Source: the human T2T-CHM13v2.0 reference genome, Homo sapiens. From it: 64,000 nucleotides of DNA. Location of the stretch: the NCBI RefSeq assembly GCF_009914755.1, contig NC_060925.1; one strand, 5' to 3'. This document shows positions 57,500-59,280 of this stretch, piece after piece. Position 1 is the first letter of the stretch, and each line of letters opens with the position of its first letter. The notes beneath the pieces were generated by a model. It did no database searches and was not told the DNA's origin. It worked only from the letters and a program-made list of their open reading frames with translations. The position numbers and the translations under genes were made by a program.

Positions 57500-58465
<966 letters not shown>

Positions 58466-58589
58466 ATTGACTTTCCCAGGTATGGCAAAATCTTTTACAG
58501 ATGCTAGATCTTTATATATCCTGCTTTTTTCTTTGGATTGGCTTGTTCCCCCACACCTTAGAATAGCAGGAAGGAAGTCACAAATTCTT

Positions 58590-58822
58590 TTTTTTTTTTT
58601 TCAGACTATTAGACTTTATAGGAGTTACCTGCTTTTGTTCTTTGAGAGGGTAATAATGTAGAAAAGATAATAAAACACCAGCCTGAATTATTACAAGTAC
58701 ATTAAATGGACTCTGAACTTAAAGGTACAGTTGGGAGCCAGGAAAACTGTAAAAACTGTTATAATTTTCTTTTTTTTTTTTTTTTTTTAGTATTTATTGA
58801 TCATTCTTGGGTGTTTCTCAGA
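58590..58822 (-). mobile_element. Severely 5'-truncated SVA carrying a 3' transduction
   Basis: 58789-58822 is the reverse complement of the SVA SINE-R end (GAGAAACACCCAAGAATGATCAATAAATACT); two poly(T) runs flank ~168 bp of unique DNA; 16-bp TSD gaagtcacaaattctt. Confidence 0.88.
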
Positions 58823-58999
58823 GAAGTCACAAATTCTTGCTAATATCATTCAATCAATACCTGCTACTACTTGCCCCGGAGGGAGCAATTTACAGTTGAC
58901 CATGTGAGAAGCTGCATCTCCACCAACCTAAAAACATCACCCCTTGAATTCAGAGCTGCTGCATTTCTACTTGAAGCTCAAGCTCAAGTTCTGTTTTCT

Positions 59000-59280
59000 C
59001 TGTTCATCTGGATCCACTCCAGCCACACTGGCCTCCTTGCTGCTTCTCAAAACACACCAGCCTCATTCCTGTATCTAGTTCTATGTTTTTGTTTTGCCAT
59101 AGCACTTAAAACCTTTGGACATAGTATATCATTTACTTATTCATTATGTTTCTTTTTAATTTGTTTGTCTTCCCCTGCTAGAAAGTAAGCCAAAGACAGG
59201 AATCTTTGTTCTGTTCATTGATATAGCCAAGGTTCTAAAGTACTTCCTAGCATATAATGGGTGCTCAAAATGAATGATTT
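59000..59280 (+). mobile_element. L2 3' fragment
   Basis: 'actccagccacactggcctccttgctg', 'ctttgttctgttcattgatatagcc'. Confidence 0.65.

What the first reader, a model, noticed from the sequence alone, without database searches (positions are those of the whole stretch)
58574..58838. Near-orphan SVA 3' transduction: ~168 bp of foreign DNA carried by ~34 bp of SVA
Seen: read on the - strand, the order is TSD, last ~34 nt of SVA SINE-R with AATAAA, poly(A) #1 (T-run 58770-58788), unique DNA (58602-58769), poly(A) #2 (58588-58601), TSD. The 16-bp TSD gaagtcacaaattctt is perfect (58574-58589, 58823-58838). A TATAAA variant poly(A) signal (tttata, 58615-58620) lies 13 nt before tail #2. Known: SVA transcripts read through their own poly(A) signal and transduce 3' flanks by L1 TPRT. 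Inference: the unique segment identifies the source SVA elsewhere in the genome. The 'AATAAATACT' terminus suggests an older subfamily (A-C, from memory). The insertion should be hominoid-specific and is easy for repeat annotation to miss.
Basis: partly seen in the sequence, partly recalled or inferred. Interest (0 to 1): 0.8.

Follow-up and report, generated by a model that had tools for sequence, protein, structure and literature searches.

The report
Tiny SVA stub carrying chr14 DNA
A 233-base retrotransposed insert made of the last 34 bases of an SVA element plus 168 bases copied from chromosome 14 near LRR1, an ordinary though unusually truncated example of a known process.

Summary
A perfect 16-bp target-site duplication (58574-58589, 58823-58838) encloses, on the minus strand, 34-36 nt of SVA 3' end with AATAAA, then A19, 168 nt of unique DNA, and a 12-14 nt A-tail preceded by TATAAA.

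The 168 nt has exactly one other copy in this genome, at C14:43795625-43795792 (99%, 2 mismatches). It lies 1,647 bp upstream of the LRR1 start codon, on LRR1's strand. Homology stops exactly at the two A-tracts, so chr14 is the parent.

No SVA lies at or near the chr14 site in this assembly, so it looks like an empty site. The 5' edge of the copied segment sits on an L1-endonuclease-like site (TTTC|AT). Only about 1-2% of positions in that locus are as good.

Best reading (0.85): one L1-mediated insertion of a read-through SVA transcript, 5'-truncated to about 34 nt. Its source SVA is absent from CHM13, either lost or unfixed.

SVA 3' transduction, extreme truncation and source-less transductions are all in print. 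This is a new member of a known kind, of low interest. Presence in apes and polymorphism in humans could not be tested.

The parts
58574..58589 (-). Target-site duplication, 3' copy in element orientation
   Evidence: Perfect 16-nt direct repeat with 58823-58838. The window's + strand reads ATTCTT|GCTA at the other copy, which is the L1-endonuclease-like nick site.
58590..58601 (-). Terminal poly(A) tail of the insert. It is 12 A outside the TSD. The 4 A next to the transduced segment may be templated by chr14.
   Evidence: chr14 reads TCTGAAAA|TTG at the end of homology.
58602..58769 (-). Transduced unique DNA, 168 nt, copied from C14:43795625-43795792. It carries a TATAAA poly(A) signal at 58615-58620.
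   Evidence: It has one other genome hit, at 99%, E 8.2e-78, with 2 mismatches in 168 nt. TATAAA is the only one of 13 tested poly(A)-signal hexamers present.
58770..58788 (-). Internal poly(A), A19. This is the genomic tail of the source SVA as read through by transcription.
   Evidence: Of 51 other copies with the same 34-mer, 49 carry an A-rich tail at this position.
58789..58822 (-). Last 34 nt of the SVA SINE-R, including AATAAA (58793-58798). It could extend to 58824 through 2 nt of microhomology (TC) with the TSD.
   Evidence: The 34-mer has 757 genome hits at up to 2 mismatches, control 0. All 51 other exact copies examined have SINE-R upstream. L010 shows the hexamer repeat and VNTR.
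58823..58838 (-). Target-site duplication, 5' copy in element orientation

Best explanation
This is a single L1-mediated (target-primed reverse transcription) insertion of a read-through SVA transcript.

- An SVA once sat on chromosome 14, in the + orientation, with its A-tail directly against C14:43795625. That is 1,647 bp upstream of the LRR1 start codon.
- Transcription ran past the SVA's own AATAAA, through its genomic A19 tail and 168 nt of flank. The RNA was cleaved and polyadenylated about 13 nt after a TATAAA.
- L1 ORF2p nicked chr1 at ATTCTT|GC and primed on the tail. It copied the flank, the A19 and only 34-36 nt of SVA.
- The cDNA was then joined to the target at a 2-nt microhomology, which left a 16-bp TSD.
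- The source SVA is not in this assembly. It was either never fixed and lost, or it still segregates.

Shown: the anatomy, the chr14 origin, the direction of copying, the SVA identity of the stub, and the absence of an SVA at chr14 in CHM13. Inferred: that a source SVA ever existed at chr14, the read-through, and the age.
For: - The layout TSD / SVA end / A19 / unique / A-tail / TSD is read directly from the sequence.
- The unique 168 nt has exactly one other copy, C14:43795625-43795792, at 99%. Homology ends at the A-tracts (172/175 including 7 flanking A-rich positions), so chr14 is the parent.
- The stub is the true SVA terminus. All 51 other exact copies have SINE-R upstream, and 49 of 51 have an A-rich tail right after ...TACT. 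L010 has the hexamer repeat and a 40-bp VNTR.
- The 5' edge of the copied segment falls on TTTC|AT on the strand that a + oriented SVA insertion would nick. Only 8 of 1,000, 24 of 2,000 and 163 of 9,492 positions in the locus are as endonuclease-like. This criterion was set after seeing the site.
- The chr1 target is ATTCTT|GC.
- TATAAA is the only poly(A)-signal hexamer of 13 tested in the segment. chr14 has a GT/T-rich stretch right after the cleavage point.
Against: - No SVA sequence lies at the chr14 site, within 5.6 kb upstream or within 3.7 kb downstream in this assembly. The SVA 27-mer has 0 hits at up to 3 mismatches. BLAST of a whole SVA copy gave 17 hits, all in its Alu-like part against local Alus. 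The source is therefore hypothetical.
- The transduced segment starts with a G. A primer ending ...TTTTC would have a terminal mismatch against poly(A).
- No sibling insertions share this segment.
- The one supplementary table I could search (PMC12593883 file 1) lists no source near this chr14 position. My hg38 coordinates were estimated from recalled gene positions.
- Absence from outgroup primates was not tested.
Confidence: 0.85

Rival explanations
1. This is a chimeric retrocopy and not a transduction. L1 reverse transcriptase was copying a polyadenylated chr14 transcript that had nothing to do with SVA. After 168 nt it switched template onto the poly(A) tail of an SVA RNA, or the two RNAs had been ligated beforehand. 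It then stopped 34 nt into the SVA.
For: - It explains why chr14 has no SVA.
- Chimeric L1-mediated insertions with a different RNA at the 5' side, flanked by one TSD, are documented, including 113 Alu/LINE-1 chimeras (PMC11838501, passages).
- Template switching and RNA ligation are both proposed mechanisms (same passages; PMC4476161 and PMC6789731 seen as search listings only).
Against: - The switch point would be arbitrary, yet it falls on an endonuclease-like site that only about 1-2% of positions in the locus match.
- The 3' partner is unique intergenic DNA, not a LINE-1 or a known mRNA, and nothing I have shows an independent + strand transcript ending there.
- In the reported chimeras the 5' partner is mostly full length. 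Here it is 34 nt.
- The cDNA end ...TTTTC gives no terminal microhomology to poly(A).
Confidence: 0.08
2. There were two separate insertions. First a 34-nt SVA stub with a long A-tail inserted and created the 16-bp TSD. Later a 5'-truncated retrocopy of a chr14 transcript landed inside that A-tail in the same orientation. Its own TSD consists only of A and is therefore invisible.
For: The layout allows it, because both A-tracts would hide a second TSD. From general knowledge, not from any call, A-tails are favoured L1-endonuclease targets.
Against: - It needs two rare events at one 30-bp spot, plus an unannotated chr14 transcript.
- It does not explain why the chr14 segment starts at an endonuclease-like site.
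- Both A-tracts are pure, and the unique part is only 1.2% diverged, so there is no sign of two ages.
Confidence: 0.03
3. This is not a retrotransposition event. The similarity to chr14 and the direct repeat come from segmental duplication, gene conversion or chance.
For: None found.
Against: - Homology to chr14 is 168 nt and ends exactly at A-tracts.
- The left flank is unique in the genome (1 match, itself). The right flank has only weak hits to an old repeat that starts about 170 nt away.
- A perfect 16-mer repeat is expected 0.02 times per window in simulations.
Confidence: 0.01

Closest known systems
SVA 3' transduction (partnered), as catalogued in human genomes
   Same: It has the SVA end with AATAAA, an internal A-tract, unique flank from another chromosome, a second poly(A) signal and tail, and one TSD around everything. 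Frequencies in print:
- 412 of 3,470 SVA insertions carry a transduction (PMC12350158, passages).
[quoted passage not shown]
- 55 highest-confidence SVA 3' events are listed in CHM13 (bioRxiv 10.1101/2021.07.12.451456, passages).
   Different: The SVA part is only 34-36 nt. Among the 52 exact-34-mer loci I looked at, the next shortest stub is about 58 nt (L058). No source SVA is present at the origin in this assembly.
Orphan transduction (transduced sequence alone, no retroelement)
   Same: The mechanism is the same: reverse transcription stops early, so the insert is mostly or wholly flank. In print there are 48 orphan events in 1,019 genomes (PMC12350158) and one SVA orphan, said there to have been described for L1 'but not for SVA' before (PMC12593883).
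   Different: Here reverse transcription crossed the internal A-tract and kept 34-36 nt of SVA. That names the carrier family directly, so this is not a strict orphan.
L1-mediated chimeric retrocopies (U6/L1, Alu/L1)
   Same: Two unrelated RNAs' sequences sit head to tail inside one TSD with one terminal A-tail (PMC11838501).
   Different: In those chimeras the 3' part is a LINE-1 and the 5' part is usually full length. Here the 3' part is unique intergenic DNA, and its start fits an insertion site.

Membership tests
SVA 3' transduction | Authentic SVA 3' terminus (SINE-R end with AATAAA) at the 5' side of the insert | tested here: met
   The 34-mer has 757 hits at up to 2 mismatches, control 0. 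All 51 other exact copies have SINE-R upstream. L010 has the hexamer repeat and VNTR. Caveat: 2 of 51 exact copies (L029, L051) lie in an LTR-like context without a tail.
SVA 3' transduction | Internal A-tract exactly where SVA copies carry their tail | tested here: met
   A19 follows directly after ...TACT. Of the other copies, 49 of 51 have an A-rich tail at that point.
SVA 3' transduction | Non-SVA sequence followed by its own poly(A) signal and a second tail | tested here: met
   There are 168 nt of unique DNA, with TATAAA 13 nt before the A-run.
SVA 3' transduction | One target-site duplication around the whole composite, at an L1-endonuclease-like site | tested here: met
   The TSD is a perfect 16 bp and the nick site is ATTCTT|GC. 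The TT/AAAA consensus is quoted from the PMC11838501 legend.
SVA 3' transduction | Transduced sequence maps to a unique locus elsewhere, immediately 3' of a source SVA | tested here: inconclusive
   It maps uniquely to C14:43795625-43795792, and its start is an endonuclease-like site. No SVA is present there in this assembly. Other haplotypes could not be searched.
SVA 3' transduction | Insert absent from the orthologous site of species that lack SVA | not testable with these tools
   No primate genomes are held. No paralogous empty site exists in this genome.
Orphan transduction | No retroelement sequence at all in the insert | tested here: not met
   The insert retains 34-36 nt of SVA plus its A19.
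Template-switch or ligation chimeric retrocopy | The 3' partner is a LINE-1 or a known polyadenylated RNA, and the junction is at an arbitrary point of that RNA | tested here: not met
   The 3' partner is unique intergenic DNA. The junction lies on an endonuclease-like site matched by 0.8-1.7% of positions. Whether an independent transcript exists there was not testable.

The most novel reading that the evidence does not exclude
No SVA ever sat on chromosome 14. The insert would then be a chimeric retrocopy in which L1 reverse transcriptase jumped from an unannotated transcript upstream of LRR1 onto the poly(A) tail of a free SVA RNA. It would be an example of SVA RNA serving as the 5' partner in a template-switch or ligation chimera. 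In that case some 'source-less' SVA transductions in catalogues could be chimeras of the same kind.
Probability: 0.08. Interest if true: 0.4.

Novelty: new member of a known kind. Interest (0 to 1): 0.2.

Why it matters
The practical value is small. The insert records that an SVA of the ...AATAAATACT lineage probably once lay 1.65 kb upstream of the LRR1 start codon and was active. It shows how a 34-nt stub can name the carrier of what would otherwise look like an orphan retrocopy.

Such stubs are useful test cases for repeat annotation and for pipelines that trace transductions to their sources. The insert lies in intergenic DNA about 14 kb from SYF2 and overlaps none of the RefSeq functional elements listed for the window. 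I saw nothing that suggests a function.

Tried and rejected
- **Paralogous empty chr1 site in this genome.** None found. The left flank is unique. The right flank gives only weak hits to an old repeat.
- **Sibling transductions.** None found (2 matches including the window itself).
- **SVA remnants around the chr14 site.** None found.
- **A published source SVA at chr14.**
  - PMC12593883 supplementary file 1 has no hit for my estimated hg38 or CHM13 coordinate prefixes, LRR1 or RPS29. The single '49598' hit is a chr22 position.
  - The held supplements of PMC12350158 have no hit, but the spreadsheet is cut after its first sheets, so its transduction tables were not seen.
  - The PMC9311842 supplement is unreadable.
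  - bioRxiv supplements are closed.
  - A full-text search for SVA + LRR1 + retrotransposon found 0 papers.
- **Papers not held.** Xing et al. 2006 (PMC1693794) and the journal version of Hoyt et al. (the PMC id I tried was from recall) are not held.
- **Subfamily consensus in print.** A search by sequence strings gave nothing useful.
- **HERV-K LTR origin of the stub.** Rejected, because the tail starts right after ...TACT as in 49 of 51 SVA-type copies. The 2 LTR-like copies continue with non-A sequence instead.

Full report
**Observation**

On the minus strand the order is:

| Part | + strand coordinates |
|---|---|
| AAGAATTTGTGACTTC (TSD) | 58838-58823 |
| TCTGAGAAACACCCAAGAATGATCAATAAATACT (SVA end) | 58822-58789 |
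| A19 | 58788-58770 |
| 168 nt of complex sequence | 58769-58602 |
| A-run of 14, the last two A shared with the TSD | 58601-58588 |
| the same 16-mer (TSD) | 58589-58574 |

TATAAA sits 13 nt before the final A-run. It is the only one of 13 poly(A)-signal hexamers I tested that occurs in the 168 nt.

A perfect 16-mer repeated 50-400 bp apart is expected 0.02 times per window in 100 Markov simulations. The real window has 361 such 16-mer pairs. The 40 I printed were in Alu-like or tandem-repeat sequence, and I did not classify the rest.

**Is the stub SVA?**

The 34-mer has 757 matches at up to 2 mismatches in the window's genome, against 0 for the reversed control. I looked at 51 other loci with an exact match: 11, and 40 more taken in list order.

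- All 51 share the same sequence directly upstream for at least 20 nt. The window's copy does not; its identity there is 0.30, which is chance level.
- 49 of 51 carry an A-rich tail directly after ...TACT.
- The other two (L029, L051) continue with non-A sequence. From recall only, I recognise that as the HERV-K LTR from which the SINE-R derives.
- One full copy (L010) shows a CCCTCT-type hexamer repeat, and a 40-bp VNTR of 7.8 units upstream of this end. That is the SVA architecture.

SVA copies read ...CCCTC|TCTGAG and the TSD ends in TC. The 5' junction therefore has 2 nt of microhomology, and the SVA part is 34-36 nt. Among the 52 loci, the next shortest stub is about 58 nt (L058).

**Where the 168 nt came from**

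A whole-genome search finds exactly two places: the window itself, and C14:43795625-43795792 on the + strand at 99% identity.

- A pairwise BLAST gives 172/175, with two mismatches inside the 168 nt. The third mismatch lies in the A-rich edge.
- On chr14 the segment is continuous with unique flanks. On chr1 the homology stops at the two A-tracts. chr14 is therefore the parent and chr1 the copy.
- The chr14 segment lies 1,647 bp upstream of an ORF starting MKLHCEV. Its first 61 residues match human Leucine-rich repeat protein 1 in PDB entry 7PLO at E 1.9e-35. It is on the same strand as that gene.

**The source site is empty**

Directly upstream of the chr14 segment are 19 nt of unique sequence and then antisense Alus.

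- The SVA 27-mer has no match at up to 3 mismatches in a 9.5-kb locus around the site.
- Tandem Repeats Finder sees no VNTR there.
- BLAST of a whole SVA copy against the locus gives 17 hits. All lie in the SVA's Alu-like part and match local Alus.

In CHM13 the site therefore looks like a pre-integration allele.

The boundary is informative. For a + oriented insertion whose tail is followed by GAAAATT..., the nicked strand reads TTTC|AT. That is four pyrimidines with three T, followed by a purine. Only 8 of 1,000, 24 of 2,000 and 163 of 9,492 positions in the locus meet that criterion. I set the criterion after seeing the site, so the figure is indicative and not a formal test. The chr1 target reads ATTCTT|GC, which is of the same kind.

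**Mechanism**

An SVA at the chr14 site was transcribed through its own AATAAA, its genomic A19 and 168 nt of flank. The RNA was cleaved after TATAAA; chr14 has a GT/T-rich stretch just beyond that point.

L1 ORF2p then nicked chr1, primed on the tail, and copied the flank, the A19 and 34-36 nt of SVA. The cDNA was joined at a 2-nt microhomology.

The source SVA is missing from this assembly. That pattern is in print. [quoted passage not shown]

**Age (inference)**

Two differences in 168 nt is 1.2%. At about 1e-9 substitutions per site per year on both copies, that centres near 6 million years. The Poisson range runs from under 1 to about 20 million years. I cannot say whether the insert is human-specific or shared with other apes.

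**Subfamily**

- The terminus ...AATAAATACT+A occurs 453 times exactly. The terminus ...AATAAA followed directly by at least five more A occurs 526 times.
- The two termini go with different upstream states. All 11 of the first type read CTCTCT before GAGAAAC. All 6 of the second type read CTCTGC or CTCTGT there.
- Over the last 377 nt, copies of the first type differ pairwise by 8.2% on average (55 pairs, range 2.2-28%). Copies of the second type differ by 4.6% (10 pairs). That comparison used 11 and 5 copies. I left out L018 as truncated, and L001, L004 and L002 as the window's own copy and the chr14 locus.
- This fits an older lineage, but the sample is small.

**Rivals**

- *Template-switch or ligation chimera.* This would explain the empty chr14 site. 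L1-mediated chimeras inside one TSD are known (PMC11838501, passages). It does not predict the endonuclease-like boundary, and it needs an independent transcript for which I have no evidence. I give it 0.08.
- *Two-step nested insertion into the stub's A-tail.* The structure allows it, but it needs two rare events at one spot. I give it 0.03.
- *Duplication or chance.* This is contradicted.

**Comparison with what is known**

SVA 3' transductions are common: 412 of 3,470 SVA insertions in 1,019 genomes carry a transduction (PMC12350158, passages), and 40% of non-reference SVAs do (PMC12593883, abstract).

Fully orphan events are reported: 48 in PMC12350158, and one SVA orphan in PMC12593883. 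That paper states such events had been described for L1 but not for SVA.

The T2T repeat paper's preprint lists 55 highest-confidence SVA 3' events in CHM13. I could not see its tables, so I cannot say whether this locus is among them. Because the source is absent here, I would guess not, but that is inference only.

**Verdict**

The insert is a partnered transduction truncated almost to an orphan, from a source SVA not present in the assembly. It is a new member of a known kind and of low general interest.

**Left open by unavailable data**

- the ape orthologs
- human polymorphism at both loci
- the supplementary tables of PMC12350158, PMC9311842 and the Hoyt preprint

Noticed in passing
L029 (C4:16059010-16059360) and L051 (C6:126964520-126964870): The exact 34-mer 'SVA end' is followed here by AAGGGAACTCAGAGG... 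and not by a tail. The same 34 nt therefore also survives in an LTR-like context (2 of 51 loci). The 34-mer alone is not exclusive to SVA.
   Followed up: partly
L061 (C8:101476760-101477110) and L036 (C4:154278500-154278850): These SVA ends are followed by an A-tract, about 20-23 nt of other sequence (L061's includes AATAAA) and a second A-tract. They look like very short 3' transductions.
   Followed up: no
L003, L009, L012, L014, L028, L049: Six of 51 SVA copies share the tail start A7-TT-A(n), and all have the same upstream sequence type. Part of the tail seems to be inherited from a common source and not added anew.
   Followed up: no
L058 (C7:156206220-156206570) and L018 (C1:21981792-21984823): These are other extreme 5' truncations of SVA, about 58 nt and about 85 nt of SINE-R end with a tail.
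   Followed up: no
window 58990-59270: The right flank of the insert contains an old dispersed repeat. It gives 27 weak hits (68-100% identity over 35-197 nt) across the genome. The left flank 58100-58589 is unique.
   Followed up: partly
L021 7273-7455 (C14:43797272-43797454): The first coding exon of LRR1 (match to PDB 7PLO chain O residues 1-61) lies 1,647 bp downstream of the start of the transduced segment, on the same strand. A source SVA would have sat just upstream of this gene's GC-rich promoter region.
   Followed up: partly
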